From Octopus sinensis (lineage: Eukaryota): a DNA stretch of 64,000 nucleotides. The translations under genes were made by a program, and so were the position numbers. The stretch's first letter is position 1. Each line of letters opens with the position of its first letter. Under the pieces are notes generated by a model. The model saw only the letters and a list, made by a program, of their open reading frames with translations. It searched no databases and was not told the DNA's origin. The stretch spans positions 17,236,001-17,300,000 of the forward strand of contig NC_043017.1 of the NCBI RefSeq assembly GCF_006345805.1, given 5' to 3'. Positions 5,079 to 53,907 of the stretch are shown piece by piece.

Positions 5079-5272
5079 AGTTAATCCAAACATGAAAGCA
5101 CACAAAAACACAACAACGCGAGGACGTGGAACAAATATAGTATTATTGGACGCTCAGGAAAGAAGGAGAGTTTAACGTTTCGAGCGGAGCTCTTTTTCGG
5201 AAACATAGGAGAAGGAAAGATTCAGAGAAGGGAAGACGGAGGAAAAAAAATCGCCAACGGTACACACGCGGT

Positions 5273-5273
<1 letters not shown>
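5079..5273 (-). mobile_element. (TA)n-flanked non-autonomous element with degenerate hammerhead-like motif
   Basis: Minus strand CCGAAAA-A-GAGC-TCC-GCTC-GAAA-CG-TT; truncated second copy at 49430-49522. Confidence 0.6.
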
Positions 5274-5308
<35 letters not shown>

Positions 5309-5598
5309 ATAGTAACACAATACCGACCAGATCATCAGATGCTGTTATACACTGCTGGTTACAATGCGCTTCCAATTTTGTGTTGATCGTGCCATTCTTT
5401 TCTATGTTGGCCGAAATTGCTTAACCAAATCGTCTTAGACTAACAGAGATTACTTAGACTGCCACACTGATATAGTGACTAATATAGGCAGAGATATGTA
5501 GGCAGATATAAACGGATTAAGAGAAAAGTACATACAGATTAACAGACATAGACTATCTGTATGAGACAGGGCACAACATGCACTCTGAGGTATATATA

Positions 5599-5827
5599 TA
5601 TTTCTTTACTACCCACAAGGGGCTAAACACAGAGGACAAACAAGGACAGACAAAGGGATTAAGTCGATTACATCGACCCCAGTGCGCAACTGGTACTTAA
5701 TTTATCGACCCCGAAAGGATGAAAGGCAAAGTCGACCTCGGCGGAATTTGAACTCAGAACGTAACGGCAGACGAAATACGGCCACGCATTTCGCCCGGCG
5801 TGCTAACGTTTCTGCCAGCTCGCCGCC
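5599..5827 (-). mobile_element. SINE family A, full length
   Basis: Reverse complement of family A; flanked by ggtatatata on both sides. Confidence 0.92.
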
Positions 5828-6080
5828 TTTGGTATATATAGGGTATATATAGGGAGTTAGACCCTGAGATAGACTGGAACGCATAGTGAGAAGGAGGTGA
5901 AGGTAGACTAACAAAGATTGACTATCGATATAGCGAGTTAAGCAATGTCTAAAACAGGAACAGAGAGAGAGGCAACGACGGACAGAATATCATAGATACA
6001 TAGATTGCGATATAATGGTTACAGATAAGGGAGAGAGGATAGCAAAGAGGACGAGAAGTTGAAGCAAATATGAGCCAGCG

Positions 6081-6460
6081 ATAGGCGTGGTTGTGTGGTA
6101 AGAAATTTGCTTCCCAGCCACACAGTTCAGGGTTCAGTCTCACTGTGTGGCACCTTGGGTTAAGTGTCTTCTATCATAGCCTCAGACCGACCTAAGCCTT
6201 GAAAGTGAAACTGGAAGAAGCCCTTCGTGTGTGTATGTGCGTGTGTGTGTGTGAGAGACCACCGCTCGACAACCGGTGTTGGTGTGCTTACGTTCCCGTA
6301 ACTTAGCACTTCGGCAAGTAAGACCGGTAGAATATGTAACGAGCTTTAAAAGAAAGACAAATACTAGGGGGTCAATATATTCGACTAAAATTCTTCAAGG
6401 CTGTGCTCCAGCATGATCGCATTCTAATGACTGAGACATGTAAAAGATTAAAGAAAAATA
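6081..6460 (+). mobile_element. tRNA-derived SINE family B (~400 bp, CORE-like CCTTGGGCAAGT motif, internal microsatellite)
   Basis: A box TGGTTGTGTGGTAAG, B box GGTTCAGTCTC, internal (GT)n, tail CCAGCATGATCGCA..TGACTGAGAC. Confidence 0.85.
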
Positions 6461-7027
6461 AAGATACATGCATACATGCAGACAGACTGAGAAAGAGATT
6501 TGTAGTTTTGACCTTGAAATATTGTGGAGTAATTTAGGTAATCCTGAAATAAGAATAGAAGAGTGGGGGTGGGGGAAAAGGTGAAGGGGAAGCGGGGTTG
6601 GAAGGTGAAGGAAGTCATTGAAAATAGAATGAAAAGTGTACGTGTGCACAGGTTGTACTAACAGCAGTTGTAAGTTTAAGGTGAGAGAGAGCGAGAGAGA
6701 GAGCGAGAGAGAGAGAGAGAGACAGTGATGACGTAATTAGTATAAGCTGTATACTGCTAGCACGTAGACTACTTAGTTATTTAGTATATAGTCAATTGAC
6801 TACGTGCTGTCAGTATATAGTACATACACACACCTGTATGCGTCCGCGTGTGTGTTTATGTGTAAACAAACACCGTTATACACAAATGCATATTTTTCCC
6901 CTATATATATATATATATATATATACTCACACACAAAAGTATATGCCCACGTGTATACTGGCAAGTGCACATTATATATATGTGTGTGTGTGTGTGTATG
7001 TGTGTGTATGTGTGTGTATGTGTGTGT

Positions 7028-7240
7028 GTGGCGTAGGTGTGTTGGCAGAATGGTTAAACACCCGGACAAAAATGCTTAGCGGCATTTCGTCCGTTTTTAT
7101 GTGCTGAGCTCAAATTCCGCCGAGGTCGGCTTTGCCTGTCATACTTTCAGATAAAATAACAGTTGGGCACCGGGGGCTTTATGATCGACTTATACCCCGC
7201 CCCCACACAAATTGCTGGCCTTGTGCCAAAAGTTGAATTC
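7028..7240 (+). mobile_element. SINE family A, older subfamily with alternative tail
   Basis: Family A head and core with tail CAAATTGCTGGCCTTGTGCCAAAAGTTGAA. Confidence 0.75.
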
Positions 7241-7706
7241 AAATATATGCACACATACACACACACATATACATATATATACATATATATATAAATGCAT
7301 GTATGTACGCGTGTGCGCAAAAGGAGGCGCGCACGCACACACACACAGGTGCACCATCAATTTTGCGGTATCTTTGGTTTCAGACTAGTGATGATTTCTC
7401 AATTTTGCCAGATTAAATGAAGTCATTACAAGGACATTGTATGAAGTCGACATCCACTTTAACCACACTTGAATCGTTGGCGATTTCTATCCCTCCGTCT
7501 TCCTTTTCTAAATTTCTTGGTGCTTGTACAAAATGATGAAATAAATACTAATTTTCAAAACAAAATATCTTAAAGTCAAAATTAAATAAAACAAATTTCT
7601 CATTTGCATAACTCGTCCCTTATCCACTTTATCATTTACTCCTTCTCTTCCTCCACTGTCTCTATGATTCTTTCTCACTCACTGTCTCTGTGTGTGATAT
7701 TCATTC

Positions 7707-7933
7707 GGCGAGCTGGCAGAATCGTTAGCACGCCGGGCGAGATGCTTAGCGGTATTTCGTCTGCCGTTACGTTCTGAGTTCAAATTCCGCGAGGTCGACT
7801 TTGCCGTTCATCCTTTCGGGGTCGATAAATTAAGTACCAGTTACGCACTGGGGTCGATGTAATCGACTTAATTCGTTTGTCTGTCCTTGTTTGTCCCCTC
7901 TATGTTTAGCCCCTTGTGCGTAGTAAAGAAATA
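7707..7933 (+). mobile_element. SINE family A, full length
   Basis: Matches 1418-1649; short gatatt duplication. Confidence 0.92.
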
Positions 7934-8642
7934 GATATTAAATTAATCTTTGCCTGCCACCTAGCCTAGTATGTACACTAATCCGACACCTCTTTCGTTA
8001 ACTCTCCCCGCACCTTTCAGTTACTCTCGCCCCACCCTTCTCTCTAAGGTGTGTCTGGAAAAGGAACTAACCAACCAACATTTATTCCGGCTACATTTAT
8101 AGAGATATTTTTAGGGATGTGCCAGAGAAATAACCACGAGCCTTCCTTTGGCACCCTTTATTCAAGACAGATGCACCAATTAAATTTTCCCATCCTCCCA
8201 CACTGAAGTTCTAATGACTTGGCAGTGGTTGTGTTTTTCTTATTCAAAGCAATGTGGCATGGTGTCTTGTAGAATACAGAATCTCGTCCCAGGCATATTG
8301 TGACACCCGTCCATCACTGCTGCTTTCGCCACAAGAGCTGGTTGGCACCTAGTTTTGCTGACTGTTCCTCGATGCAGATGGCAACAGATATCGTGATACC
8401 GTTAATCAGTTCTTCGTTCTTGTAATGTTTCGTGCTTTTTCAGTAATGGTGGCTTCGTGCGTGTGCACAAGCACTTGTGTGTCTGTACATATGTATGTAT
8501 ATATACAAAAACATACATACATACATACATACACATATATGCATAAGTGAGTGGGTGTTGTATATATCTTTGTATGTGCATATATATATAAATACATACA
8601 TAAATACACAATCACATATATATGTGTGTATTTGTGTGTGTG

Positions 8643-8692
<50 letters not shown>

Positions 8693-9653
8693 CATACATA
8701 AATACACTCACTCACACATTTGTGGATGTGTATGCGTATGTGTGTGTGAGAGAGACTTACAATGAGTGGGTGTATATACACATCTACGACACAGCTGTCT
8801 GGTTGTATAACAATGAGCCATTTACAAGGTTTCCCCAACCATCTTAAACGATAAGCCACACTATTTGATTATCCGAAATGAACATTATCAGTTTCACTAA
8901 TGTCTGTCACATGACTTCTGTTGTTGTTATTGTTGTTGTTGCCCTTTGTTTCTTTGTTACTGTTGGTGTTATAATTATCATCATCGTTGTTGTTGTTGCT
9001 GTTATTGCTGCTGCTACTGCTGCTGCTGCTTCTTGTCATGTGGTTTTTCTTATTGCTCCTGTTGTATTTTGCTTTGCTTAATATTACTCAGATATACACT
9101 TTATAACTGCTTTTCCTGATAATGGCGGTGATGATGTTGACGCTGATAATGAAGAGGATGCTTTTTCTTGGTTTTCTTGCTGTTGAACTTCACCGCTTTC
9201 GTCTGACATTTTTTTTTAACAGTCAGGATCTTAGTATATATTTATGTATTTGTTTCCCAACCACCACCACCACCACCACCCACTACCACCATTCCAACGA
9301 AATATTACAATTTCTCCCTCTCTCTCCCTGTTACCCATCGCTATGTAAATAAACATCTCATTAACATACACTGAAACAGGAGCAAATAATTCCAACAGTC
9401 GACACATTTCTCTTTGTTTTACGAGCTTCTCTCACTCTCTTTCCTCTCTTTCATATTAATAAATTCTTCCTCTGTCTTTATAAAATATCATTTGTGAAGC
9501 ACTCCCTACACACACTCTCTCTCTCAAAGTCTTTGAGAGAAAAACATCCACCATCCCCCACTAACAATTTGATCAGATGCTCTACCATTTCTGCCACTGT
9601 TCTCTGTAGAATATTGGCACAAGGCCATGCCTTTGGAATAGAGAACGAGTGAT

Positions 9654-9689
<36 letters not shown>

Positions 9690-9954
9690 ATATATATATG
9701 CATGCACGTATGTATATGTATGTCTGTGTCACAAGTTCACCGATGCGAACGGGTGAGTGGAAATGTTTTTGAATCAAATAGCTGATAGCGATTCGCTACC
9801 TTAAGTACCGGTACCAAATTGAACTAAATACCAATATGCTTTAAGCCCTGAGGTCGAATTCTTCGACAAAATCTCTCTTAGGACGGTGCCCCAGCATAGC
9901 TGCAGCCAAATGATGACTGAAACAATATATATATATATATAATTATATATATAT

Positions 9955-10041
9955 TCAAAATAAGCAGCAAGAATGACTCCGGTAATTTGGTACGATCGTT
10001 TCGTACCAAATTACCGGAGTCATTCTTGTTGCTTATTTTGA
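9955..10041. repeat. Near-perfect palindrome (41-bp arms, 5-nt loop)
   Basis: 9955-9995 is the reverse complement of 10001-10041 with one mismatch; abuts (TA)n. Confidence 0.95.
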
Positions 10042-10149
10042 TTATAATCACCCCACGGATTTTTATGGATAACACCATACAGAATTCTGGTGCATCTAAA
10101 TTAAGTACCATATCCATTTGAATCTAAATTTTTGCTGAACTTATATATA

Positions 10150-10460
10150 TATATAAAATACAAAATGAGACTAGAACGCAAAACATCCAGACAACTAGGA
10201 AATACAAAAATGGGACAACAAAACATTCAGATTGACGATACAAAGAAAACAAGGACGGGTCATTCGAAGTTTTCTTTCCTCAGTCAAGTATCAATCAGAT
10301 TATCTTCGCAATTTCCTGGCCAGCCCCAAGGAAAATCTATGCTAAGAGCATTAGATTCCTTGGAAGAAAGCAGCGAATGTATACAAAAACAAGGATGGGA
10401 AAAAAACGGACAATGTTATTCAAATACAATAAAAACAGGACATAACAACAGGTGTCTTTA
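10150..10460 (-). mobile_element. Microsatellite-flanked dispersed repeat family (other copies 33806-34025 and 52050-52310)
   Basis: Shared GACGATAC, GACGGRTCATT, CAGTCAAG and TAAGAGCATTAGATT blocks in three copies; CTGANGA motif on this strand. Confidence 0.75.
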
Positions 10461-10560
10461 CACACACTCACACACACACAGACACACGTGTGTGTGCTTG
10501 TTTGTACTCCTGACACTTCCTGACGGCCGGTGTTGGCTTGTAACTTAGCAATCATATAGA

Positions 10561-10595
<35 letters not shown>

Positions 10596-10733
10596 GTTAG
10601 GGCGGGGCGGGGGAGAGTCGCGTCTCCACCTAGTAATGTCTGCCAAGGTGTGCGTATTGCACTCACTATATGCTTGTGTATGTGTGTCTTTGCGTTTATG
10701 TGTCCAAATGTATACGTACTGCACTCAGTGATT

Positions 10734-11135
10734 GTGTGAATGTAGATGTGTGTGTGTGTGTGTGTGTGTAAACGTAGATGTGTGTGTATGTGTGTGTGAA
10801 TGTAGATGTGTGTGTGTGTGTGTAAACGTAGATGTGTGTGTATGTGTGTGTGAATGTAGATGTGTGTGTGAATGTAGATGTGTGTGTGTGTGTGTGAATG
10901 TAGATGTGTGGGTATGTGTGTGAATGTAGATGTGTGTGTATGTGTGTGAATGTAGATGTGTGTGTGTGCGAATGTAGATGAGTGTGTGTGTGAATGTAGA
11001 TGTGTGTGTGTGTGTGTGAATGTAGATGTGTGTGTGTGTGTGTGAATGTAGATGTGTGTGAATGTAGATGTGTGTGTGAATGTAGATGTGTGTGTGTGTG
11101 TGTGTGTGTGAATGTAGATGTGTGTGTGTGTGTAT
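10734..11135. repeat. Compound minisatellite [GAATGTAGAT(GT)n]
   Basis: About 17 units of a 10-bp motif separated by variable GT runs; source of the 235-aa HT-rich ORF. Confidence 0.92.
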
Positions 11136-11721: not shown

Positions 11722-12100
11722 CTAATAAGTTTGGATCAGTCGAAACCTTTTGATAGAGTCGACCATCAATACTTGTAGCCTGTCCACTCGGCGGCCGGAT
11801 TCGCTCCCGTTTTCAGAGGCTGCATCGGTGCAATGTACAGCGACTGCTGTGCTGTGGTCAAAGCAAATGGCCATATGTTAGAGTCATTGAACATCGCACG
11901 TTCGGTTCGTCAAGGATACCCGCTCTCACCACTTCTATACGTGCCAGCTCTTGAGCCATTGCTATGGAAACGAGATGTTTCGAGAGGTATCCCGCGTGAA
12001 CTAGGATGCGGAAAGTAAGTGTCGGCTTATGCAGACGACGATGACACCGTAATAGTGTCGGATATTTCGGGAACTGATGTGATCGGCACCACCCTAAGGG
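11722..12100 (+). mobile_element. L1/Tx1-clade LINE reverse transcriptase fragment, decayed
   Basis: One frame reads ISLDQSKPFDRVDHQYL*...VVKANG...RSVRQGYPLSPLLYVPALEPLL...*VSAYADD, with two in-frame stops. Confidence 0.9.
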
Positions 12101-12472: not shown

Positions 12473-12900
12473 GTGAAAAAACAAGTAAAAAATAGAAAAT
12501 GCTAAAATAATTTTATAGTGAACATTTCAGTACCGGTTTCGTCATTTTGAGACCTTTTCAACTGTAACGATTAAATAATTAAATTTAGAAAAATTAGAAG
12601 AAAAGTTTTTTTAAAAGAATATTTCTATAGTAGTGTTCAGATTTAAGTGGCATTCTCCTTTCTCTGACTCCTTGTTGCACTTGTGTGTTCGATGGTAGTT
12701 GTGAGTTCTTGGTAGGGTAGTAGAGGGAAGCTGGTGAGGAAAGGGGGGGGGGAGAATCTGGGAGTGCCCTGATGGTCGTTTTGAATGGTCAGTGGCGGCT
12801 GGCAGTCGTCATTCAATTCGGAGAATATTTATATTGACATGCTTGTTTATAGAATTAGCGTAGGTGTTATACTAAAAACTTATTGAACAAACTTAAGGGT
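12473..12900 (-). mobile_element. (TA)n-abutting Penelope-like remnant with hammerhead-like motif at 12522-12570
   Basis: Minus strand CAG-TTGAAAA-GGTC-tcaaaat-GAC-GAAA-CCGG-TA-CTG; right boundary uncertain. Confidence 0.5.
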
Positions 12901-13165
12901 AGGGGTGAAGAAGAAGAAGAAGAAGAAGAAGAAGGAGAAGGAGAAGATGATGGTGATGGTGGTGATGATGATGATAACGATGATGATGAGAAGAAGAGAA
13001 GAAGAAAGGAGGAGAAAGGAAAGATGGTGGTGATGAATGGTGGCGATTGATGATGACGCCGATTATGATGATGATAACGATGATGATAAGAAAAGGAGGA
13101 AGAAGAAGAAGAAGAAAAAAACAGAGAAGGGAGAATATGAATGGGTGTATATATATATATATATA

Positions 13166-13275
13166 CTACTACTACTACTACTATGGCAATCCCTCAAGGT
13201 CGAGGATGATGGTCTTCGCGCAAATTTATTGGTGAGTCCGCAGGTGACTGATAAGACCAATTCTTGCTCGAAAAA
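13166..13275 (-). mobile_element. RTE LINE extreme 3' end (zinc-finger-like tail, 3' UTR, (TAG)n)
   Basis: Minus strand translates FRARIGLISHLRTHQ*, then a short UTR and (TAG)n. Confidence 0.85.
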
Positions 13276-13463
13276 GGTAGACCTCAGCGATGAACTCCAA
13301 CACCGTTTGAAGTGTGCAGGAACAGCTTTCGGCAAGCTTCGAACAAGAGTTTTTGCTGATCGGGACATCCGAACCGAAACCAAACTCATGGTGTACAGGG
13401 CAGTCATTATTCCAACCCTCCTTTACGCATCCGAAACCTGGAACCCCGTATAGTCACCACCTG
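13276..13463 (+). mobile_element. RTE LINE RT C-terminal fragment, inverted relative to the adjacent 3' end
   Basis: VDLSDELQHRLKCAGTAFGKLRTRVFADRDIRTETKLMVYRAVIIPTLLYASETW. Confidence 0.9.
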
Positions 13464-13932: not shown

Positions 13933-13968
<36 letters not shown>

Positions 13969-15945: not shown

Positions 15946-16350
15946 AGAGTTTACGAAAAACAAAACAAAAGACGAAGACAGGTGGTGTACAAAACAAACA
16001 GATGTATTAGTATAACACTCAGGAATAGAAAAAGTCTTTTTACGTTTCGAGCCTACGCTCTTCTACAGAAAGGGACACAGAAAAAACAAGGAGAGAAACA
16101 AGGAGAGAAAAAAATGTGTGTAGAGGCTAACGATCTATCATGGCGACTAGTGCCGGACAGAAGGGTCACATAAACCCAAATATATATACGACGGGTCACC
16201 TTCAGCTTTTGTTTACCAAAGCCGCTCACAAGGCTTTGATCGACCAGAAGTTATAGTAGAAGACTCTTGCCTCAGGTACCACGCAGGGGGACTGAGTCCG
16301 GACCTAAGTGGTTAGGAAGCGAGCTTCTTACTACATAACACGCCTGCGCC
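15065..16350 (-). mobile_element. SINE family B split in its internal microsatellite (3' half 15065-15262, 5' half 16188-16350)
   Basis: Both halves are collinear with the intact copy at 34171-34583. Confidence 0.75.
15943..16147 (-). mobile_element. (TA)n-inserted ~200-bp element with variant hammerhead-like motif
   Basis: Minus strand TTT-CTGTAGA-A-GAGC-GTAG-GCTC-GAAA-CG-TA-AAA; homologous to 49159-49340 and 53714-53912. Confidence 0.75.
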
Positions 16351-19165: not shown

Positions 19166-20111
19166 CCCACACAACACATAAGGTGATATATTATATATAT
19201 ATGTATTACATTCTTCAGACAGTCGGCAGCATTTGCCACCGACATGGACACACACACATACGCACACGCACGTACTCGCAGTCCTCCCCCACACATACCA
19301 ACCCAACTGTCTCACACACACACAATCGTATATATGTCACACCGGTGTCGGTAATTCCTAACTTCCGAGACTCCTTTTTATTCTTCATATAATATTTCAG
19401 AAGAATGCAAGGATGAGTGGGGAGGTGTAGTGTATGATGGGTAGCCTATTTATTTGCATATTTGCATATTTTACTACTGCAACCTGACATACACACATAC
19501 ATACACACACATATATATATATAAACACAAGCATTTAGATACATTCACAAACGCGCACACACACTATATATATATATAATAGAAATATGTTACAAAAAGA
19601 AAATAGAAACTAAACGTGGTAATGCGAGGGGAAAGAAAGAAAAATCAACGAAAATGCACATTGTAAATATAAAAAGTAAAGGCTTTTTATGAAAAAGTAA
19701 CGAAAGATATATGCAATTAGATGAACTGAGGTAGGAATAAAAGTAATAAAAGTCATTATTGTGAGATTATTAAAGAGATTCTAGCATACCGACGGTTTCG
19801 TAAGTTACTATTCATATATATATATATATATCTATATAATAATAATAATATTAGGGAGTAAATCCAAACTTACAGGGAAAAATTAGAATTAGGATTAAAT
19901 CTAATTTTACAGTATAAGTATAAATTAAATTAGAGATAAAACCACAATTAGGCAAATCAAACAGTGAAAAACATAAACCAAAACATAGAAATAAAATTAA
20001 TTAATATAATATACAAAATATATAAAAAATATAAAATTCAAAATTTAAATTATTTAAATTTAAAGTTAAAAATTTTAAATTATTAATTTATATTTATAAA
20101 TAAATAAATAA

Positions 20112-20636: not shown

Positions 20637-20757
20637 TATATGTCAATTTGAGGATATAAACCTCTTATAGGGATAGTTCCATCCAAGTTACACTGGTTTA
20701 ATACATTATACTGTGAAGAGCTACCTCTTCAATAAATACATTATAAATATCAAATAT

Positions 20758-21089
20758 TATTAAGCGAGAAAATGGAGAGATTTAATGGATAAAATTAATT
20801 TATTAGCATTCCCTACAATTGTTTCAATTCACACAAAGGATATTAACGAAGTTATTTGCTGACACGTTGGGGCATTGTAAGTCTGTTAGAATGTCCCAAC
20901 CGGCCAACAAGTAACTTCTTTAATATCCTTTTGTCCTCATGATATTCCACTCAAAATCTTCAAAATGCAAACATATTGTATTATATATGTTTTGTAATTT
21001 GTATTGAGTGTGAATTGAAACAATTGTAGGGAATGTTAATTAAATAAATAAATTTTATCCATTAAATCTCTCCATTTTCTTGTTTAATA
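20758..21089 (+). mobile_element. Nested foldback element with hammerhead-like motif (inverted-pLTR-like)
   Basis: Outer arms 20758-20834 / 21008-21089; inner hairpin 20835-20931; CTCATGA (20936) - long stem II - GAAA-C-AATT-GT-A (21017-21028). Confidence 0.75.
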
Positions 21090-24341: not shown

Positions 24342-24420
24342 TTTATCGGGATACGGTTGTATTTCAGCGAACTGAGTGACTTCGTAAAAGTGCACTGAAA
24401 GTCGTCGTCAGCCAAGAAAA
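24342..24420 (-). ncRNA. Type I hammerhead ribozyme-like motif
   Basis: TTTTCTTGG-CTGACGA-[stem II]-GAAA-TAC-AACC-GTA-TC-CCGATAAAA: stem I 8 of 9 pairs, stem III 4 bp, AUC triplet; base of stem II imperfect. Confidence 0.6.
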
Positions 24421-25927: not shown

Positions 25928-25970
25928 GACTTTAACGTTTCGAACGTTAAGTCCTTCATCAGAAAAGGAA
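25928..25970 (-). ncRNA. Minimal hammerhead-like motif
   Basis: TTTT-CTGATGA-A-GGAC-TTAAC-GTTC-GAAA-CG-TT-AAAG within a microsatellite-flanked ~200-bp insert (25863-26065). Confidence 0.55.
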
Positions 25971-28004: not shown

Positions 28005-28284
28005 TATCAAGAAAGAAGAGATGACAAACGAATAAATGATTACCTTATGAACTTTATTAGCTTTACAGCTGTTTCTGTTATAAGTACCAGTGAACTCATA
28101 ATTGAATGCCTGAGTAACACCTCATAGCTTCACTGGCACTTTATATTCGAGGTTCCGATGAAACTATAAGGTGTTACACAGGCACTAAAACATGATTCTA
28201 CTGCATCTTGATAGCAGAAACAACTGAAAGCTAATGAAGTTCATAAAATAATCGTCCATTCCATTGTCATCTCACTTTCTGATA
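28005..28284 (+). mobile_element. Nested foldback element with degenerate hammerhead-like motif
   Basis: Outer arms ~28005-28084 / ~28206-28284; inner hairpin 28107-28184; CCGATGA at 28155, GAAA at 28217; the left arm read on the minus strand gives GAAA-C-AGCT-GT-A. Confidence 0.7.
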
Positions 28285-29303
28285 TACAAGGAATCTTCCC
28301 CCAATTGTAGAGAGGTTGTGTGAACCCAGTCATTTGAGTTTGACGAATCGCCCGTGCAGATAAGCGCTTGTTTGGTGCGAAACCCATAATCCCTCCCTGA
28401 CCGGCCACAACAAGCAAACCTCAAAATATACACAAGGAACTATATTTATACACACACATACACACACATGGTAGCGTGTACTTGCTTCTGCTCATTTCTT
28501 TGCCTGTGTGTGTGTGTGTGTGGTGTGTGTGTGTGTGTGTTTATATCGAAATGAGTTGGCAAAAGGAAAGGAAAATAATCATAATTAGTAAGAAAAAAGT
28601 AATTGTTTCCTCTAGTTATACATGCCGCCACGTGCTAATATATCCACTACCGCCATTATTTTATTATTTTTAATAATAGTAATAATAATAATAACAATAA
28701 TAAACTGCGAAATGTCTTGTTCTCTTCACCTCCACCGTCCGTTTCCTTCTGCCCTCTCTGTTTCTCCTCCCACTCTTTAACTTACACAATTACCAACATC
28801 ATTCTCACTACTCTCACCACCACTATCACAATTATAATACTTCCGACAACAGTACTAGTACCCACCACCGCCACCACCACTACCGCTACTACTACTACCA
28901 ACACCACTATCAAAAAGTCCACCTGTCACACCAGTAATGTCAACTTGTGTCACCTTGTGACAAGTATATATTTCCTTTTATTTTTTTTCTTTACCTTCCG
29001 TGAGTGAGTCCCCTACTTGTCCTGGTGGAAGTAGGCATGTGTTGGGGAGAGAGAAAGAGAGAGAAAAAGAGAGAGATAAAGCAGAGGAAGAGACGGGGTA
29101 ATGAGAGACAGAAAGAATCATGGTGGGGGGGATAAGTGCAATAGGGAAAGAGAAAAAGGGAGGAGAGATCTTTAAAAGGAGAAACAAAAAGAGAAGAGAC
29201 ACGAGTAAGATAGGGAGATGGAAGGAGGGAGGTCGCGGTCTACAAAGAGATAGATTGTGGGTGAGATAGAAGTAGAAGAGAGATGGGGAGAATAGAGAGA
29301 ATG

Positions 29304-29334: not shown

Positions 29335-29732
29335 TGTGTGTGTGCGCGTGGTGACAACGATAGAAGGTCAAGAACTTTCCAATTCTTCCCTGAACCAAGC
29401 AACCCCCGTCAACTTACATCCACGCATCCACTCGGTTATATTGGTCAGTATACCATCTATCAACCAATGTATCGGGTAGCAAACTAGTTGAATACGAGGT
29501 GGATAAATGTCGAACATAATTAAATAAAAACATATAAGTGGAATGCGTGGATGATATATGGGAGATGCAAGTGCACCTGGAAGGCAGACTCGTTTTCTTA
29601 GAGGCTGCAGCAGAAACATCACTGCGACAGATATTTTTTTATCCAAGAGCACAAAAGTCAGTAATCATTGTAGAACTTGCAGTGTGCCCTGGGAGGACAG
29701 ACCTGACATTTTGTACAAGCTGAACAATGCCA

Positions 29733-30109
29733 GAGGAGAATTAATGCATTCGAGCTTTGGTGTTGGAGAAGACTTTTACGGATTCCATGGACAGCGAGGC
29801 TCACCAATGGAGAAGTTCTTAAGCAGATAAGGCCGAAAATGCCGCTAGAAGCGAGGAACACCAAGCATAGATTGGCATATTTCGGTCATATTATGCGGAG
29901 AAAATCCATAGAGAAGGACATCATGCTCGGAGTGGTCAGTGGCAAGAGAGGAAGAGGCCGACCAAGAACCCGCTGGCTTGACACCATCAAGAGCGATACC
30001 GGAATGGACATAGCCAATCTGAAAGAAGCGGCCCACGATAGAACTGACTGGAGGACACTGATCCAACGAGTGACCGAGAGTCGACTTCGACTGAGCGAAT
30101 AGAGAGAGA
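29733..30109 (+). mobile_element. RTE-BovB-like LINE, 5'-truncated 3' end with open frame
   Basis: RINAFELWCWRRLLRIPWTARLTNGEVL...YFGHIMRR...LGVVSGKRGRGRPRTRWLD...DRTDWR...RVTESRLRLSE*, (AG)n tail, 11-bp TSD gaacaatgcca at 29722 and 30110. Confidence 0.95.
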
Positions 30110-33790: not shown

Positions 33791-33805
33791 CACACACACA
33801 CACGT

Positions 33806-34019
33806 CCTTGTTTCGTATACATTCGATCTTTTTTCCAAGGAATCTAATGCTCTTAGCTTAGTTTTTCCTTGGGGCCGGCCAGATTGGAGCAATCTCAAGA
33901 TTAATCAGCCGAAATTGCGAGGATGATCCGGTTCTTGACTGAAGATTAAAGGCTACGAATGACCCGTCCGTGTATTTTGTATCGTCTATTTGGATGTTTT
34001 GCGTTCTTGTCCTATTTTG

Positions 34020-34025
<6 letters not shown>
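33806..34025 (+). mobile_element. Microsatellite-flanked repeat, same family as 10150-10460
   Basis: Reverse-complement homology; CTTGA-CTGAAGA at 33934-33945. Confidence 0.75.
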
Positions 34026-42311: not shown

Positions 42312-43586
42312 GGTACTTATTTTATCGATCCGGAAAAGATGAAGAGCAAAGTAGACCTCGTTGGAATTTGAATTCAGAACGTAAAGACGAACGAAACGCT
42401 TGCTAAGCATTTCGCCCGGCGTGCTAAAGATTCTGCCACATCACCGCCTTTTGATTGATCACATATTAAACTGTTGAGAGAAATATTTCAACCATTTTAT
42501 TTGATATGCAAAAGAGGTCAGATTTCCTTTCATCTTTCCAGGATTGAAAAAATATTAAAGTAGCAATCCGGAGCGGTGGATTAATGGAACTGTTAGAAAA
42601 TGGGACAAAATTCCTTGTGGTATTTGTTCCGGTTCCTTTACGTTCTAAATGCCCCTCAAAGGTGTTGCGAACTTGGTTGACTTGTCAGAAAACTACCGGA
42701 AGAAAGGCAATAGGAAACCACGAAAATTCCATGTCAAGTATCTCTCATGTAATACACACACACAACTTGTCAAGGAACACACTAGGGATCGCTTAGTATA
42801 AATACGGATGTTTTCTTTTATCCTTTACTTGTTTCGGTCATTTGACTGCGGTCAGGCAGGGGCACCAAAATGTGGGGAGAGGTTATTTCAAATGTTTACA
42901 CAATTGAACATATACTGGGTTACATAATGCAAATGCATGCACACACAAACACACACGCACACACAACATAAGATACTTTTTTAAAAAATCAATTATTTTT
43001 TTTATTTTCAGTTTGTTTAAATATTGATTTTCAATTTGTTATAATTTCTATTGTAATTGTTGTCGTTTCTGAGATACCAGAGTAGAGAGACTCGCAATTA
43101 ATCAATCAAGTAAGCAAACAAACAAACTGTTTGGAAAACTGAGGCACCGAATTGTTGGCTGGACGGGATGTGGGAGAAGATCAGAGAAGAATTGTTGAAA
43201 TGCACAAAACAAAGAAGAAATACTTCTTCTAAACTGATTAATGCATCTTGGGTAAACTTTGAGACTGCCACAGAATAAAGAACAAGAGAAGGAAATCATG
43301 TTTGTATAGAACAAGAAACGCTGATATTGTTAGCATTATATCCGGCATTGTAAAAAAACTATAGTTATATATTGGTTCATAAATGCGTGTGTGATCGGCT
43401 GTGGTTCTTAGTATAAAAGAAGAAAGTGACCCAACTATAGGAAAATGTGAGGGTTTTTTTTTCCTTTCCTGTTTTCAAGTGAAATTTATAAGGTGTCTAT
43501 CTGAGGAATTCAAAGATGTCGATCTTACAGGAAACTCAGAATCATGTCGCATCGTATTTTTGTATGGTCATCATTAAACTATGATA

Positions 43587-43817
43587 CAGGGTGCGACAGA
43601 AAGGTTGCTTCGATTTCAAAGGTTAAAAAACAAACACACGAAGATGCATGAAAAGAGTTTTGTATTTCTACGAAGTTCATTAAATGCCATTTTTTTTTCC
43701 TGTTTCAGGTCGTCCCTACCATAGCCTGGAGTGGAGAGCATCGGTTTTTCTTGTAGCTTCATGTGTTTGTTTTTTTATTAACCTTTGAAATCGTGGCAAC
43801 CTTTCTGCCGCACCCTG
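43587..43817. mobile_element. Tc1/mariner MITE with ~70-bp imperfect TIRs
   Basis: CAGGGTGCGACAGAAAGGTTGC..GATTTCAAAGGTTAA / TTAACCTTTGAAATC..GCAACCTTTCTGCCGCACCCTG; TA on the left. Confidence 0.88.
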
Positions 43818-44002
43818 GATATTAGCTGAGGCGCCACCCTGATGCCACTGCAAGCACCACGTTACTACCAAACACCTTCATAAACATCAAACAGAGACGA
43901 AATAGTTGATGGAAAAATTCGAAACTTAATGACTTATATTTGAATATTTTTCTTCCGCTTATACATTCACAAAATCGGCAGACACACACATACACACGCG
44001 CG

Positions 44003-46676: not shown

Positions 46677-48177
46677 ACCCACTTGGAGTTAATATACCTT
46701 TGTTTATAATTTTAATGATTAGATTCAATTAGTATTTCATTCTTAGGGTATTTGTTATTGCTTTTTAAACATGTCTAATAAATTGCTTGATTTAAGGTAA
46801 CTTTTCTTATAGTACTAATCTGCCTGAATACCCGGCTTTAATTGTACCCATATAGTGCCAATATACTCTTTTAAATTGTTTTACAATAATAGGAACTATA
46901 TAATTTTAATGACTATGCAATGCTTATTAAGCATATTTAGTTTACTGTGACAACTAGAGAGTTTCATTATTTGATAATATTTCAACATGTGATTTGGCCT
47001 TGCGTACCTGTATATATTTAATTATTACCACAATTTGCTATATACAAAGTTGAGCCCAATTTCATTTCCTAGTAGCTTTAATTGAATCGCTGAGTTGCCA
47101 GTACTGGTTGCCTCCCCTTAAACACAATCCCGTGGATTCCTTCACTTTTCCCTCATGCAGGTGTTGTAACGTTAAGATGCTGAAGGACATAAATGGCCCC
47201 CACAACATCTATAACCTTGACTTCTCCCCCAGAACTTTTTTCTTTTCTTATTTATTTTATAAACAAATTCTTTGTAGCGGTTTTAACTTGTGGCCGCGGT
47301 TCAATTTGTAACTGACCAATTGGACTTAGACATGACCCATTGTGGACCGTAGGTGGGATCCATGGTACTAATTCCAGTGAATAAATGTTCTTAAGCACCA
47401 TACGGTAATTGCTTACTTTTACTGCCCTTTGATAATCATGGTAGTATTTTTCTTATATACATTTTCATGATAACTTCTTTTTTTAAATGCTATCCCCTAC
47501 CCTTCAAATTGCATCTGCCCGTTAATAAATTGTAGTATTCCCCTAGACCATTACTAGCTCACTCTTTTACATACAGACTTCGTAGCTCCAAGATGGTAGA
47601 TTATATGCTTTTAACATATTGGGGCTTCTAGACTTTTTGTCTAGGCCATGTTTTCTTTCCTTTCCCTTCTTCGGAAAATGGCGTTCCCGAGAATCTTTAT
47701 CGTTGTGGTGATTAAAGATTCTCATGAATTCCATTTTCCGTTTCCCTCATTCATTATAAACTCAATGAACACTGCAGAATTTGAGAGGTAGATAGGGTGA
47801 CACTTATATATCAAAGGTGTGGACGGCATCATTTAGCCTAAACAGTGAAAGTACGTTAATCGGCATACTATTCACCGTATTCTCTAAGCCCAAATAATTA
47901 CTCTCTCTTTATATATTGCCCTTACCTTCGAAACACGGAATAAGTCGAAGCAAGGGCAGCTGAAGAAGGGGAATGTTCCTTGTGTTGTTTGTCTTGTACT
48001 CTGTTTTTACGTTGTTTAAAAAAGTCCGTTTCCATGTTTTGTTTTTATGTTTTCGTTTCTCGTTGTATTCTACGTTTTTTTGTGGTGTCCTGTACCCATA
48101 TATGCATGTATATATACATACAGATGTAGGTAAGTACATATATGTATGTATGCATGTGTTTTATTTATTAAATTATT

Positions 48178-48222
<45 letters not shown>

Positions 48223-48227
48223 CACAC

Positions 48228-48268
<41 letters not shown>

Positions 48269-49158
48269 AAGAAAGAAAGAGAGAAGTGTTTGTATTTGGT
48301 GAGCTATTTATTAACCTGCGTATTTCATTGTCTGTCGGTATACTGGGTGCCCACCACCATCACAACCACTCCCATTCAAATCGGTACATTTTTCAATGGG
48401 GAAACATAGCATATACAATAAAAACGAAGACAGTGCAACACTGCTGTAGTAGTAGTAGTATAGTAGTAGTAGTAGTAGTAGTAGTAAATATTGCGTGAAT
48501 TGAGTATCCAGTACTACTACTACTACTTCTATTATTAGTACTACTACCACCGCCACCACTACTAATATAACTATCACTACCAACGCCACAACCACTACTA
48601 TCACCACCACTGTGGCCACCAGATCTATCTAATTAGATAATAAATGTATGAAATCAGGGCAGATTGTTATTAATTCAATGGATTTAATCAGGGAGTTGTG
48701 GATTAGATAGAGAGAGGGATCGAGAATGTGAAGAAGGAGCAGACAGACGCATAGAAATAGATAGACAGACAGACAGACATAATCATACAGGTACAGACAG
48801 CAAAATGCGTACATGAAGTATTGATATAGAGACAAAAAGATACACACACACATACATACACACACGCACGCACGCACACATTGACTGACTTACTGAAGTT
48901 CATTCATAAGTTGTGGAGAGGGGGGAAGGGACAAAATGGTGGCGTGTATCGAATTTTAATGTCAATGTTGGGGGAAGGAGGCGAGGTTCACAACAGCACT
49001 GCAGACATACATAGAGACTAAAAACAAGGTCATGTTTTGCATGTAAGCTTACCAAAACACACACATTATTTACATATATATATACATACGTTATATACAC
49101 TCACGTTGTATACATATACACGCACACTCACTCGAATATATATATATATATATATATA

Positions 49159-49337
49159 GATCGGTAGCCACTACACATATTTCTCTTCTCTCCTTGTTTT
49201 TTTCTGTGTCCCTTTCTGTAAAAGAGCGTAGGCTTGAAATGTAAAAAACTTTTTCAATTCCTGAGCGTTATACTATTACATCTGTTTGTTTTCTACACCA
49301 CCTGTCTTCGTCTTTTGTTTTTTTCTTGAACTCTCCC

Positions 49338-49340
<3 letters not shown>
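49159..49340 (+). mobile_element. (TA)n-inserted element, same family as 15943-16147; hammerhead-like motif decayed
   Basis: CTGTAAA-A-GAGC-GTAG-GCTT-GAAA-TG-TA; (TA)n on both sides. Confidence 0.75.
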
Positions 49341-49379
<39 letters not shown>

Positions 49380-49534
49380 CAAGATAAGAAAATGGAGAAA
49401 TACATCTAAATCAAATATATATATATATATAGTTAATCCAAACAAGAAAACACAGAAAAAAACACAGCAACGCGAGGACGTGGAACAATTAAAGTATTAT
49501 TTGACGCTCAGGAAAGAAGGGAAATATATATATA

Positions 49535-49575
<41 letters not shown>

Positions 49576-49576
<1 letters not shown>

Positions 49577-49860
49577 GTGTTCTGAGTAATCTTAAAGCCA
49601 TCATGCTAAACGACATCGGTCGCTCTCCAACAGGTTCAATGGTCGAGTCAGTGGCAGTGGAGACCTCCGGGTTGTAGGCTCCCTGGCCATATCCCTGCTC
49701 ACCGTCAGCGAGGCGAAGACGGCTTTTCGCAAGTGCAAGCCCAGTGGGACCGAGTGGCTGTTTCAGTGCATCTCCCTCGCCATCCTCCGGGGCAACAACA
49801 CCTTTCTTATTTCGTCTGCTGGAGCCACGAGAAATGTTTCTTGTGTGAGCGGCAAGTTTC
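49576..49860 (+). mobile_element. CRE-like (restriction-like endonuclease) non-LTR retrotransposon C-terminal fragment
   Basis: With one frameshift reads VESVAVETSG/VGSLAISLL...TEWLFQCISLAILRGNN, matching the PxAVETxG...WLFQRxSxAxxRGN pattern of CRE-type ORF ends; follows (TA)n. Confidence 0.7.
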
Positions 49861-50369
49861 TTCAAAATTAATTCAAATAATGGCAGTGTATGTATGACAA
49901 CAGAAAAGTAATATTCACGAGTTCACGGCACATAGGAAAAGTCGTGTTCATCATGGTCTTTCATCCGATGTACACTCCATGTTCCACCTAGGGTTTTCAT
50001 CCGACTAAAGACCTATCACCTTCATATAAATTAGCTTGATTTTGCCCTTTAGCTTAATAACACCACCTTAGTCTTTTTAAGTCATGTTTTTTGGACGTTA
50101 TGGTTCATTGAAATAAAGAGGCATTGTTTACCAAAATGTATCCAGGCGCTGGTTGTTATGTAAGGTATTGCTCGGTGGAATTTCTCTCTGAATATTATGA
50201 CGTCTTTTTCTCTTCAGGTGGGAGAAGAAGGGGAGATTTACAACAGCACTGCAGACATATGTAGACTGTTTTACATGTAAGCTTACCATAACACACATTA
50301 TTTACATATATACACGTACAGTACATACACTCACATTGTATACATATGCACACACACACACACACACGA

Positions 50370-50404
<35 letters not shown>

Positions 50405-50493
50405 TGTATGTATGTATGTATGTATGTATGTATGTATGTATGTATGTATGTATGTATGTGCGTATATATCTATACTCTGGACACCTTTGATAA

Positions 50494-50906
50494 CTATTTT
50501 TCTCTGGTGGACTCTCAAAGCCATTCGATGTTGAAAAACCTATTATAATTTTATAATTAAATATGATTACGGAGATGTACTTGCATAGCAAGTGACCTGA
50601 TCTGAGACGGTGTGTTGGAACAGAATTTTGTCAGTGAACAGGTCGCGGTCTTAAAGCGACGAAAATATTTTGACAAATTAAATTTAAATGTTGAAGTGAA
50701 TCTAACGGTTTTGTGTGTTTCTTAAATGGCTTATAAACACCTTCCCCGCTGCAATTGTTATATATAATTAGGTATTGTATTTTTAAAAATTGTTAAAATA
50801 TTTTGTGTATTGTAGAATTATAAACAATTTATTGTCGATAAATTCTAACTATAAAATCTTGTATGGAAACCCCTAAGGCCATATAGAATCCTGCTGAGAA
50901 CTACTG
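50494..50906. mobile_element. hAT/Charlie-like MITE lacking a clear left TIR, with an insert at ~50570-50760
   Basis: TCTGGTGGACTC..GCCATTCGATG body and right end GCTGAGAACTACTG. Confidence 0.6.
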
Positions 50907-51720
50907 GTGTAATGCATTCACTTCAAATACACAACACCATAACATATACACACGCACAACATAACGAAGGCTTGAGACCTGGTTAGGATGGTGTACTGGG
51001 GATCGTTATATTATGGTTTCGATTTCCAGACCGAGTGGTGCGATATATTCTGGAACAGAACTTCATTTCTCGTTTCTCTTGTACACAAAATGAGTAGCCC
51101 TACGACACACGGAAGTTGTGACTTCGGTCACAGATATATATGATTACCAGTTGACTAATATAATCTAGTTTCAATTTAAGCTGGTCTGGTTATTGTGAAC
51201 AGATTCAACCTGACCCGAAACAGAATTCACTCTGTACGTAAATCACAATGTAGAACAACATAACACTACATATTGAAGCACTATGCGCTTTGTTTTCTAT
51301 TTGTAAATCCTATTTCTATGGACAAGCACACACACACACACGCGCGTGTGAAAATGTGGAAAAGACCTCGACTAAACTGGGAGAGGTCTAGCAATCACTC
51401 ACTACATGCTTTTAGAAGGATTGCTGGGAATCCATCAGGGCCAGTAGCCGAGTTTGGGTTCATTTCATCTATAGCCCTGATCATATCGTCTTCCTTTATA
51501 TTGATGTAATCAATCATCACTGCCTCTAGTTTTTATATCTGCATATAAATATATGTGTGTGTTTGTGTGTGCATAGGAGAAATCCAAGGGAACAATCTCA
51601 ATGTAGCTAAAAGTTGTTAAGTCTCCTAGGGAATAATCCCGAGATTGTAAGACTTATTTAGTTAAAATATAAAAAGGAGGTGAACGCTCGGGACGTTGTT
51701 AATCCATTTATATCATGAAG

Positions 51721-51806
51721 TCTTCTACATACGTTTCGACGGGTGCACTCCAAAATGTCCGGCAGGATAAATAATGGGCAGTAGTGCACCAATCTCTTCA
51801 GGAGGT
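51721..51806 (-). ncRNA. Type I hammerhead ribozyme-like motif with canonical core and extended stem II
   Basis: CCTC-CTGAAGA-GATTGGTGCAC...GTGCACCCGTC-GAAA-C-GTAT-GT-A-GAAG: stem II 10 of 11 pairs opening with G-C, stem III 2 bp, GUA triplet, stem I weak. Confidence 0.6.
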
Positions 51807-52011
51807 TTATGATAACAAGTTCATGAAATAAGCATGCTGGCCGAAAAAAAAGTCATACAAAATGTAACGTATTTATATAAGAGAAATAAATGAAAAAGTA
51901 AGTAGATAAAAACAAATAAATAAAATAAAGCTAAAGTAAATGAACACCAAATGTATAGTGCGTGTGTTTCCATTGGCTAAACTGGCAACATGACCACCCC
52001 CAAATACAATA

Positions 52012-52049
<38 letters not shown>

Positions 52050-52051
<2 letters not shown>

Positions 52052-52310
52052 TGGAACGAAAACGCAATAGAGGACAATAAAACATTCGGACAGATAGACG
52101 ATACGAAGGCGGACAGGAGAAACAACAATTAGGACAGGAAGAAAAGACGGATCATTGGTTGCCTTCTTTCGTCAGTCAAGTTTATCGGAAGTCCTTACTG
52201 TTTCGGGCAGTTACACTTCAGAGAGTTGCCATCCCCACCCCCAATGTCTAAGTTAAGAGCATTAGATTTTTTGTAAGATAGCCAACAAAGACAAAAACCG
52301 AGAACATAGT
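52050..52310 (-). mobile_element. Microsatellite-flanked repeat, same family as 10150-10460
   Basis: Diverged homology; CTTGA-CTGACGA on the minus strand at 52169-52180. Confidence 0.65.
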
Positions 52311-52317
52311 ATATATA

Positions 52318-52358
<41 letters not shown>

Positions 52359-52726
52359 GGTCGTTGTAGTGTGTAAAGCTTAGGTGAAGGCGGAATGCCG
52401 TTGTCAAGAGTGTGGATGTACGAGTGTGTATGAGAGTGTATATCACTGGTGTTGGCGGCGATGGCAGTATGGTAGCGGTGGCGGTGGTGATGGAGAGAAA
52501 AGAAGGAAGGAGAGGAAAGAGAGGGGGGGGAGTTGAAAGAATTAATTGGAGATGGAAACAGAATACGAGAGAAAGACAGAGAGAGGGAGAGAAAGAGAGA
52601 GAGTGAGAGGGTTAGGCAGAGCGGAATGTAAGAAATGAGGGAAGAGGAAGAGTATCGACTTAAAACGAAAAGTTTATTCTCAGGTTACAGTGTGAAGAGA
52701 TAATAATGTCTATTGATATTGGGGAA

Positions 52727-52957
52727 GGCGGCGAGCTGGCAGAAACGTTACCACGCCGGGCGAAATGCGTAGCCGTACTTCGTCTGCCGTTACGTTCGGA
52801 GTTCAAATTCTGCCGAGGTCGACTTTTCCTTTCATCCTTTCGGAGTTGATTAAATAAGTACCAGTTACGCACTGGGGTCGATATAATCGACTTAATCCGT
52901 TTGTCTGTCCTTGTTTGTCCCGTCTGTGTTTAGCCCCTTGTGGGTAATAAAGAAACA
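52727..52957 (+). mobile_element. SINE family A with 17-bp TSD (one mismatch)
   Basis: aatgtctattgatattg at 52705 and aatatctattgatattg at 52958. Confidence 0.92.
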
Positions 52958-53053
52958 AATATCTATTGATATTGTAGACTGGCTTTGAATTATTAACACA
53001 CACACAAACACACTTATTTTTCATTTGTTTCAGTTTTAAGAATGCAGCCATGC

Positions 53054-53418
53054 TGCAGCACTACCTCCTCCTGTCACTTGATGCAGACTTCCATATTGAG
53101 TCTGTGGCCGTGTAGGAAGATGAATGGAAGCATAATGTCGCCATCACTAGTGATCACACTAAACACCATGATGTTGACTGGATGTTTGATTTTTATCACT
53201 CTCGATACATGTTCGTATTGGAGATTCCGGCGCGGATACCAAACAGCACAGCATGTCGTTTCCAAATTTCTGTTAGAGTGAATGGCGCCATGGTACTATT
53301 TTTCTCACAGGCGGTGCCCACCTGACCCTGCTATACTGTGTGATCGAGAAAATTAAAAGCAATGCGCATGCGCGAAATTAAAAATATAAATTTATCTCAG
53401 TTTACCCATCACACCCTG
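53054..53418 (-). mobile_element. Internally deleted Tc1/mariner (DD37D/maT-like) transposon
   Basis: Terminus CAGGGTG at 53418; MAPFTLTEIWKRHAVLFGIRAGISN joined to KHPVNIMVFSVITSDGDIMLPFIF..GHRLNMEVCIK. Confidence 0.8.
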
Positions 53419-53440
53419 CAAATTCATACACGTATGTATA

Positions 53441-53641
53441 CGAGGTGGTGTACCGAAAAGTTCCTGGCTTTAAGTGTCTCACGAAAGGCCTGGCTGAAGA
53501 CCCAACCATCTGAGTTGTTTTACAGGGTTTAGAAAAACTAAAGGAAAGCTGCAATAAGTGTATGAATCTGAGAAAAAATCATAACTAACAGATCTTCATG
53601 CATTTTCTTTTACCGAAAAGCAGGAACTTTCCAGCACCCAC
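53441..53641 (+). mobile_element. mariner-derived MITE
   Basis: Imperfect TIRs GAAAAGTTCCTGGCTTT / AAAGCAGGAACTTTCCAGCACC; retains the transposase C-terminal relic GLEKLKESCNKCMNL; TA flanks. Confidence 0.7.
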
Positions 53642-53652
53642 TATATATATAT

Positions 53653-53713
<61 letters not shown>

Positions 53714-53716
<3 letters not shown>

Positions 53717-53907
53717 CATGAGTGACCGCTAGCCACTAAAGCTTTCTTTATTCCCTCTGTTTATTTTCTCGTGTTCTTTTCTGTTGAAGAGCGTAGGCTC
53801 GAAACGTAAAAGACATTCTCACTTTCCCGAGCGTTAAACAAATTAATACACCTGTTTGTTGTTTACACACCTGTCTTCGTCTTTTGGGGTTTTTTTTTGT
53901 AAATTCC

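What the first reader, a model, noticed from the sequence alone, without database searches (positions are those of the whole stretch)
5170..53814. Many unrelated microsatellite-inserted elements share a minimal hammerhead-like motif with family-specific palindromic stem-loop III
Seen: about 12 motifs of the form stem I / CTGANGA / stem II / GAAA / tiny stem III / TH at 5170-5203(-), 9985-10010(-, partial), 12522-12570(-), 16033-16075(-), 19783-19815(-, partial), 20930-21032(+), 24342-24420(-), 25928-25970(-), 28150-28232(+), 49208-49250(+), 51721-51806(-) and 53773-53814(+). They sit in short non-coding inserts that are otherwise mostly dissimilar, and most abut (TA)n. In most of them stem-loop III is a palindrome whose sequence differs by family: ACGT, ACCGGT, ACAATTGT, ACAGCTGT, ACGATCGT. 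Established: Penelope-like elements carry minimal type I hammerheads in their pLTRs, and palindromic loop 3 allows dimeric cleavage. Inference: this genome hosts a diverse set of non-autonomous, ribozyme-bearing, (TA)n-associated PLE derivatives at roughly one per 5 kb. I cannot tell whether these families are already described.
Basis: partly seen in the sequence, partly recalled or inferred. Interest (0 to 1): 0.75.

Follow-up and report, generated by a model that had tools for sequence, protein, structure and literature searches.

The report
Penelope retroelement hammerheads with rewired cores
These motifs are the tail ends of several Penelope-type jumping-gene families, which are already known to carry a tiny, likely self-cutting RNA; the unusual part is that whole families here have changed core letters normally held fixed, including all four possible versions of one core base pair, though cutting is untested.

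Summary
The motifs are real, but only 3 of 12 read CTGANGA literally. Eleven of 12 have relatives elsewhere in the genome, in eight families; 24342 is a single copy. They are the 3' ends (pLTRs) of Penelope-like retrotransposons. For 5 of 12 (three families) longer copies lead into a Neptune-type GIY-YIG endonuclease, and two families have pLTR-RT/EN-pLTR elements, so these are 5'-truncated copies, not separate non-autonomous elements. Minimal palindromic hammerheads and microsatellite targeting are published PLE features. The less ordinary result: many departures from CTGANGA are family-wide, not decay. The largest family fixes A6U, while its subfamilies differ only at the free positions 7 and 17. 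I found only U3-A8 among these as natural in print; two key papers were unavailable. This scan had already noted A6U and G3-C8 on other DNA of this genome, and A3-U8 in another genome. Cleavage is untested, and insertions run through the predicted cut site.

The parts
5080..5275 (-). Family B pLTR fragment; hammerhead at 5170-5204, family core CCGACGA/CCGACAA (U4C, often G8A), palindrome ACGT
   Evidence: 1,888 first-look candidates; 28 of 29 copies end in (TA)n
9950..10140 (-). Family H fold-back insertion; only the 3' half of the hammerhead (9987-10005), palindrome ACGATCGT; the complete canonical motif is seen in one locus, L234
12471..13155 (-). Family E 5'-truncated copy; hammerhead at 12528-12564, core UUGAAAA (U3-A8), palindrome ACCGGT; the window copy lacks one stem II base
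   Evidence: begins about 100 bp after the stop of the RT-GIY-YIG ORF of L236
15943..16130 (-). Family A (subfamily A2) pLTR fragment; hammerhead at 16038-16071, core CUGUAGA (A6U)
19583..19815 (-). Family I 3' end; hammerhead at 19783-19815, core AUGAAUA (A3-U8); 5' strand of stem I lost at the TA run
   Evidence: longer copies L245 and L251 carry GIY-YIG sequence upstream
20755..21089 (+). Family F copy with inverted 5'-truncated arm (20755-20834); hammerhead at 20934-21030, family core canonical, U10.1.U11.1 mismatch (read by eye), palindrome ACAATTGT
24342..24420 (-). Orphan candidate: CTGACGA core, 4-bp hairpin III, poor stem II; single copy, status unresolved
25930..25966 (-). Family D minimal hammerhead, fully canonical core; two distant relatives found
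28005..28285 (+). Family G copy (hammerhead 28151-28232) with inverted arm (28005-28132); family palindrome ACAGCTGT
49159..49337 (+). Family A2 fragment with decayed hammerhead at 49213-49246
49432..49520 (-). Family B 3' tail that starts just after the hammerhead (no motif)
50570..50757 (+).
   Evidence: 32 of 32 motifs in 30 loci; 1,534 first-look candidates
51661..51880 (-). Family C copy; hammerhead at 51722-51805, canonical core, long stem II, helix III ACGTATGT (self-pairs with G.U) or ACATATGT by subfamily
53720..53910 (+). Family A (subfamily A1) pLTR fragment; hammerhead at 53777-53812, core CUGUUGA (A6U)
   Evidence: 4,840 first-look candidates

Best explanation
The motifs are hammerhead-type sequences in the 3' repeats of several Penelope-like retrotransposon families, left as short 5'-truncated insertions at TA microsatellites, and they likely act as slow self-cutting RNAs that would work in pairs. 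Shown: family membership, the ORF link for families A, E and I, TA-rich 3' junctions, inverted truncated arms, family-fixed cores. Inferred: a tandem pLTR-ORF-pLTR transcript carries two motifs about 4.3-4.5 kb apart, which pair through the palindromic helix III to form a double hammerhead and trim the precursor; the element's RT and GIY-YIG nuclease then copy RNA into (TA)n sites and mostly stop early. Because every family's copies extend 40-204 nt past the predicted cut, the template must often be uncut or religated, so cleavage is probably slow or protein-assisted. That would explain why rate-lowering but fold-keeping cores (U3-A8, A3-U8, G3-C8, A6U) can be carried by successful families.
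For: ORF link: EN upstream of A1 copies L007 and L027; pLTR-ORF-pLTR elements L124-L126 and L128 with open frames of 841-1,009 aa (RVT_1 1.3e-7, GIY-YIG 0.008 below Pfam's cut-off); family E L236/L238 (RVT_1 1.7e-8, GIY-YIG 3e-4); family I L245 (50% identical to the E endonuclease, E 9e-28). The CX4CX2C linker before GIY-YIG resembles the Neptune rows in the supplement of PMC8557442. Selection on the motif: majority sequences of A1/A2/A3 agree at 32-33 of 34 motif positions vs 65-82% in the flanks, and differ only at N7 and H17 (Fisher p 0.0001, 0.003, 0.053). U at position 6 in 26 of 30 A1 motifs and 40 of 40 regex matches in 33 of 36 EN-linked loci (one a probable stray match), and in both pLTRs of four long-ORF elements; no other letter at >=10% at that position in four runs with different organism labels, while N7 and N17 vary. 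3-8 pair: E U3-A8 in 28 of 28, K G3-C8 in 32 of 32, I A3 in 21 and U8 in 23 of 26 matches, several of the rest truncated or stray. Family C subfamilies swap C-G/U-A in stem I and G-C/A-U in stem II (25 of 30 rows parsed). The double hammerhead is the cofold minimum for G and I, and within 0.2 kcal/mol for H.
Against: No cleavage data. 5' ends do not pile up at the predicted cut: 2 of 307 hits within 3 nt (hits are biased towards long copies and overlap between the A queries). The double hammerhead is not the cofold minimum for 7 of 10 families (A, B, C, D, E, F, K). In family B position 8 is A in 15 of 29 copies while the other CpG letters are mostly kept (24-29 of 29, one at 16), and it tracks a second diagnostic site, so a subfamily with a broken C3.A8 pair seems to have amplified. 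PMC3088659 (section 8) reports low activity for A6C; PMC11167929 (passages) found cleavage not needed for insertion in vitro. No ORF was found for B, C, D, F, G, H, K. Each 3-8 swap is one evolutionary event, three in all.
Confidence: 0.72

Rival explanations
1. Same PLE origin, but the variant motifs no longer cut. They persist as a folded handle or sequence signal for the element's protein (binding, RT start, promoter or splice signal), or simply hitch-hike in successful master copies.
For: Insertions run through the cut site and 5' ends are not enriched there; family B amplified with U4C and G8A; A6 changes lower activity (PMC3088659); catalysis was dispensable for insertion in vitro (PMC11167929).
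Against: Three separate families changed both 3 and 8 to a new Watson-Crick pair, a pair of the active fold; family A varies only at the two positions that are free in hammerheads.
Confidence: 0.18
2. Some families (B, K, perhaps G, H) are true non-autonomous, retrozyme-like or SINE-like elements mobilised in trans by PLE proteins.
For: B and K copies are short with clustered 5' ends and no ORF in 1.5-kb flanks; one B tandem with a 574-bp period. bioRxiv 2026.07.22.740005 (part 1 of 5) derives animal retrozymes from PLE pLTRs.
Against: A, E and I looked equally short until longer copies were found; only the best 40 of about 1,500-1,900 candidates were scored for B and K; copies are dispersed or inverted, not tandem arrays.
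Confidence: 0.3
3. Chance matches or decayed repeats read as ribozymes.
For: Nine of 12 window copies lack the literal core; relaxed descriptors give 0.8-3.8 chance hits per window; 24342 is single-copy; no Rfam hammerhead in the rows shown.
Against: 11 of 12 have family relatives whose majority sequence forms the full type I layout; strict descriptors exceed all 60 shuffles.
Confidence: 0.03

Closest known systems
[quoted passage not shown]
   Same: Type I order, palindromic 15.2-16.2/loop 3, extra base between 9 and 10.1, many dissimilar families per genome, mostly single motifs from truncated PLEs. The family E core UUGAAAA equals the Schistosoma U3-A8 row.
   Different: None of the 56 rows of their Fig. 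S3 has U6, C4, A3-U8 or G3-C8, though their descriptor excluded these by design; no cephalopod among those rows.
Neptune-clade PLEs (described in Craig et al. 2021, PMC8557442; passages, section 6, supplement search)
   Same: RT then C-terminal GIY-YIG with a CX2-5CxxC linker; 5' truncation, partial tandems, inverted arms, 30-40-bp tails, microsatellite targets.
   Different: Clade assigned by domain order and linker only, no tree; core variants are not mentioned in the passages read.
Natural hammerhead core variants (Perreault et al. 2011, PMC3088659; section 8 and passages)
   Same: U3-A8, A6C, U4C and U10.1.U11.1 are reported as natural and active or weakly active.
   Different: Those are rare single cases; here the variants are fixed in families with about 900-4,800 first-look candidates, and include A6U, A3-U8 and G3-C8, which the section read does not name (its Fig. 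5 was not visible).
Non-LTR retrozymes (bioRxiv 10.64898/2026.07.22.740005; part 1 of 5)
   Same: Short non-coding type I hammerhead carriers derived from PLE pLTRs.
   Different: Defined as tandem arrays with a hammerhead in each unit; the window elements are dispersed or inverted and three families are ORF-linked.
Small dimer-cleaving PLE hammerheads (Lunse, Weinberg, Breaker, PMC5785218; not held, title seen, content recalled)
   Same: Diminished stem III, dimer cleavage, PLE association.
   Different: Could not check whether its large collection already holds these core variants.

Membership tests
Penelope-like element, EN+ (Neptune type) | Single ORF with RT followed by C-terminal GIY-YIG endonuclease | tested here: met
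   Families A and E; family I endonuclease part only. Not found for B, C, D, F, G, H, K.
Penelope-like element, EN+ (Neptune type) | pLTR-ORF-pLTR partial tandem with the hammerhead in both pLTRs, sense to the ORF | tested here: met
   L124, L125, L126, L128 (A) and L236 (E); motifs 4.27-4.51 kb apart.
Penelope-like element, EN+ (Neptune type) | CX2-5CxxC linker between RT and EN | tested here: met
   Read in the translations of A, E and I (last Cys altered in the decayed I copy), compared by eye with the Neptune rows.
Penelope-like element, EN+ (Neptune type) | Placement in the Neptune clade by RT phylogeny | not tested
   No named reference set was fetched.
Penelope-like element, EN+ (Neptune type) | 5' truncation, inverted arms, tail extension, microsatellite target | tested here: met
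   3' end followed by (TA)3: B 28 of 29, E 24 of 24, I 20 of 24, G 12 of 23, F 10 of 24, C 10 of 29, K 7 of 29, vs 9% background (end offsets set by hand).
Minimal type I hammerhead ribozyme | Stem I / core / stem II / GAAA / palindromic helix III / UH in type I order | tested here: met
   Family majorities or intact copies of A-I and K; not met by 24342 (no palindrome).
Minimal type I hammerhead ribozyme | Consensus core CUGANGA | tested here: not met
   Met by C, D, F, H and 13 of 24 aligned G copies (counted by eye); not met by A (U6), B (C4, often A8), E (U3-A8), I (A3-U8), K (G3-C8). These five are variants, not consensus members.
Minimal type I hammerhead ribozyme | Stem covariation | tested here: met
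   Family C subfamilies; stem I and palindrome differ between families with pairing kept. Few independent events; no formal covariation statistic.
Minimal type I hammerhead ribozyme | Self-cleavage 3' of H17, as dimer | not testable with these tools
   Needs an in vitro assay; genomic 5' ends give no footprint.
Non-LTR retrozyme | Tandem array of short non-coding units, each with a hammerhead, and no ORF | tested here: not met
   No such array among the 150 of 165 tandem-repeat rows shown for the window; A, E, I are ORF-linked; only rare short tandems among genome hits.

The most novel reading that the evidence does not exclude
One animal genome carries active retrotransposon hammerheads with all four Watson-Crick versions of the core 3-8 pair plus a fixed A6U, each kept by selection as a slowed, possibly protein-assisted switch. 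Standard CUGANGA searches would then miss a large share of animal hammerheads, and PLEs would tune cleavage down so that uncut RNA remains for copying.
Probability: 0.4. Interest if true: 0.65.

Novelty: new variant of a known kind. Interest (0 to 1): 0.45.

Why it matters
As written, the finding restates known PLE biology. The family-fixed cores add natural, high-copy tests of hammerhead catalysis: G3-C8 and A3-U8 are, as far as I could read, known from laboratory mutants, and A6 is treated as nearly invariant. If they cut, ribozyme search descriptors are too narrow and the open question of what hammerheads do for PLEs becomes testable with matched natural variants from young families (E is 99% identical across copies). 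If they do not, family A shows a hammerhead fold kept by selection without catalysis.

Tried and rejected
Rfam scan: no hammerhead in the 150 rows shown of 233; minimal variants are poorly covered, so not used as evidence. No PLE ORF in the window itself (ORF list; tblastn with A and E proteins). Pfam on the 107-aa A endonuclease fragment: 0 families. ORF search upstream of B, C, F, G, K copies and in 6-10-kb stretches around paired C, F, G copies: nothing PLE-like except one weak, unlinked hit in L085; H loci gave only one E-family fragment (L231). 24342: single copy. One search's first motif-vs-flank test was mis-anchored and was redone. 5' ends at the cut site: not enriched. RNA: no RNA holder listed. 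Contigs laid on family I list no change at positions 3 or 8, but cover is thin and 28 rows were not shown, so it is not counted. Host: not determined by a call; an octopus-like cephalopod is my inference from recalled repeat families, molluscan names among homologues and the scan's notes. Literature searches for the variants; none showed natural A6U, A3-U8 or G3-C8. PMC5785218 and PMC1986816 were not held, and bioRxiv supplements are closed; these could bear on novelty.
Full report
Setting. The window lies in a 2.72-Gb animal genome and is rich in microsatellites and short repeats. It holds no PLE reading frame. The host is probably an octopus-like cephalopod; that is inference and recall, not a tool result.

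Observation. All 12 places hold hammerhead-like sequence, but only three read CTGANGA. A type I descriptor with palindromic helix III finds more hits than shuffled sequence: 1 vs 0 for the strict core, 3 vs 0.03 when any Watson-Crick 3-8 pair is allowed, 5 vs 0.82 with one mismatch (60 shuffles). Ten of 12 lie within 120 nt of a TA run against 29% by chance.

Families. Genome searches scored the best 40 candidates for each query. First-look candidates, which are lower bounds and not copy numbers: A1 4,840; B 1,888; I 1,701; H 1,620; K 1,534; G 1,302; E 910; F 614; C 116; D 3; the 24342 motif 1. Copies share a 3' end, often followed by (TA)n, and many have an inverted truncated arm or a tail extension, which PMC8557442 (section 6) describes as PLE hallmarks. 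In A, E and H the element's own 3' boundary contains a short TA stretch before the tail, which fits insertion into its own end to form tandems (inference).

Link to autonomous elements. Two of 30 A1 loci continue upstream into a GIY-YIG domain. That domain has 13,169 first-look candidates, and fetched regions show pLTR-ORF-pLTR elements with 841-1,009-aa open frames. Family E is 99% identical across 40 scored copies and flanks an RT-GIY-YIG ORF; the window copy starts about 100 bp after the stop. Family I copies L245 and L251 carry endonuclease sequence. So 5 of the 12 motifs are truncated copies of coding elements; 'non-autonomous' is unproven for the rest.

Core variants. Family A has U at position 6 in 26 of 30 A1 motifs and in all 40 matches from EN-linked loci, including both pLTRs of four long-ORF elements. 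Across three subfamilies the 34-nt motif differs only at N7 and H17, while flanks are 65-82% identical. Contigs of four runs with different organism labels show the same pattern. With the canonical families, the window holds all four Watson-Crick forms of this pair. Each swap is one event. Family B is the counter-example: U4C in 24 of 29 copies and G8A in 15 of 29, a pattern that looks inherited and breaks the 3-8 pair; a canonical-core relative sits in L035/L036. About half of the aligned G copies also have C4 (by eye).

Mechanism. PMC4209133 shows that such motifs need a second copy to form helix III and cut weakly. Here tandem elements place two motifs 4.27-4.51 kb apart. The double hammerhead is the cofold minimum for G and I and near it for H, but not for the other seven families. 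Copies extend 40-204 nt beyond the predicted cut and only 2 of 307 hits start within 3 nt of it, so the templates were mostly uncut at the 3' motif. This agrees with PMC11167929 (passages), where a lizard PLE hammerhead cut only with the element's protein and uncut RNA was the main substrate. My reading is a slow, probably protein-assisted dimeric ribozyme, in which rate-lowering but fold-keeping changes are tolerated. Cleavage itself is not shown.

Comparison. Minimal palindromic hammerheads, family diversity and truncated solo copies are published (PMC4209133), as is microsatellite targeting (PMC8557442). U3-A8, A6C, U4C and U10.1.U11.1 are known natural variants (PMC3088659). C3G/G8C is described as a partial laboratory rescue (PMC11167929, PMC8495972, PMC3884650; passages). 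Five searches showed no natural A6U, A3-U8 or G3-C8, but two central papers were not held. A repeat annotation of Octopus vulgaris lists recently active Penelope-like families and does not mention ribozymes in its main text (PMC13282606, passages). This scan's own notes had A6U and G3-C8 from other pieces of this genome and A3-U8 from another genome; I saw them after my own calls had shown each variant, and they are not independent support.

Verdict. Real, and mostly a known feature of Penelope-like elements. The family-fixed cores make it a new variant of a known kind; interest 0.45.

Noticed in passing
   Followed up: yes
window 10161-10400 (-) and 33805-34024 (+); motifs at 10259-10283 and 33939-33963: Family J: TA-terminated repeat with CTGANGA followed by GAATGAC in place of GAAA; could be a U15.1-A16.1-type variant or a decayed motif; stems unclear; 12 more fragments in fetched loci.
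   Followed up: partly
families A, B, C, about 10-35 nt 3' of stem I: A shared YCYGAGCG box follows the hammerhead in otherwise dissimilar families; role unknown (seen by eye).
   Followed up: no
L252, L254, L257-L259, L263, L264, L266, L268: A family I subfamily has a tandem duplication of the 5' strand of stem I plus the first core half.
   Followed up: no
L005, 3' flank of the A1 copy: A family B copy inserted next to an A1 end, with the hammerhead deleted between two short direct repeats.
   Followed up: no
window 1416-1653 and at least 12 other places: A 240-bp dispersed repeat with internal inverted similarity, about 90% identical between copies, not TA-associated (3 of 13 with TA at either end).
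   Followed up: no
window 13037-13453 (+) and 29707-30102 (+): Short frames that look like fragments of non-LTR retrotransposon proteins (RTE/CR1-like by recall).
   Followed up: no
window 43584-43820: Inverted repeat pair (84% over 75 bp), possibly a MITE.
   Followed up: no
P0031, P0042, P0054, P0097, P0101, P0111, P0118: Close PLE homologues are filed under bacterial gill-symbiont names on short contigs; probably host DNA in symbiont assemblies.
   Followed up: no
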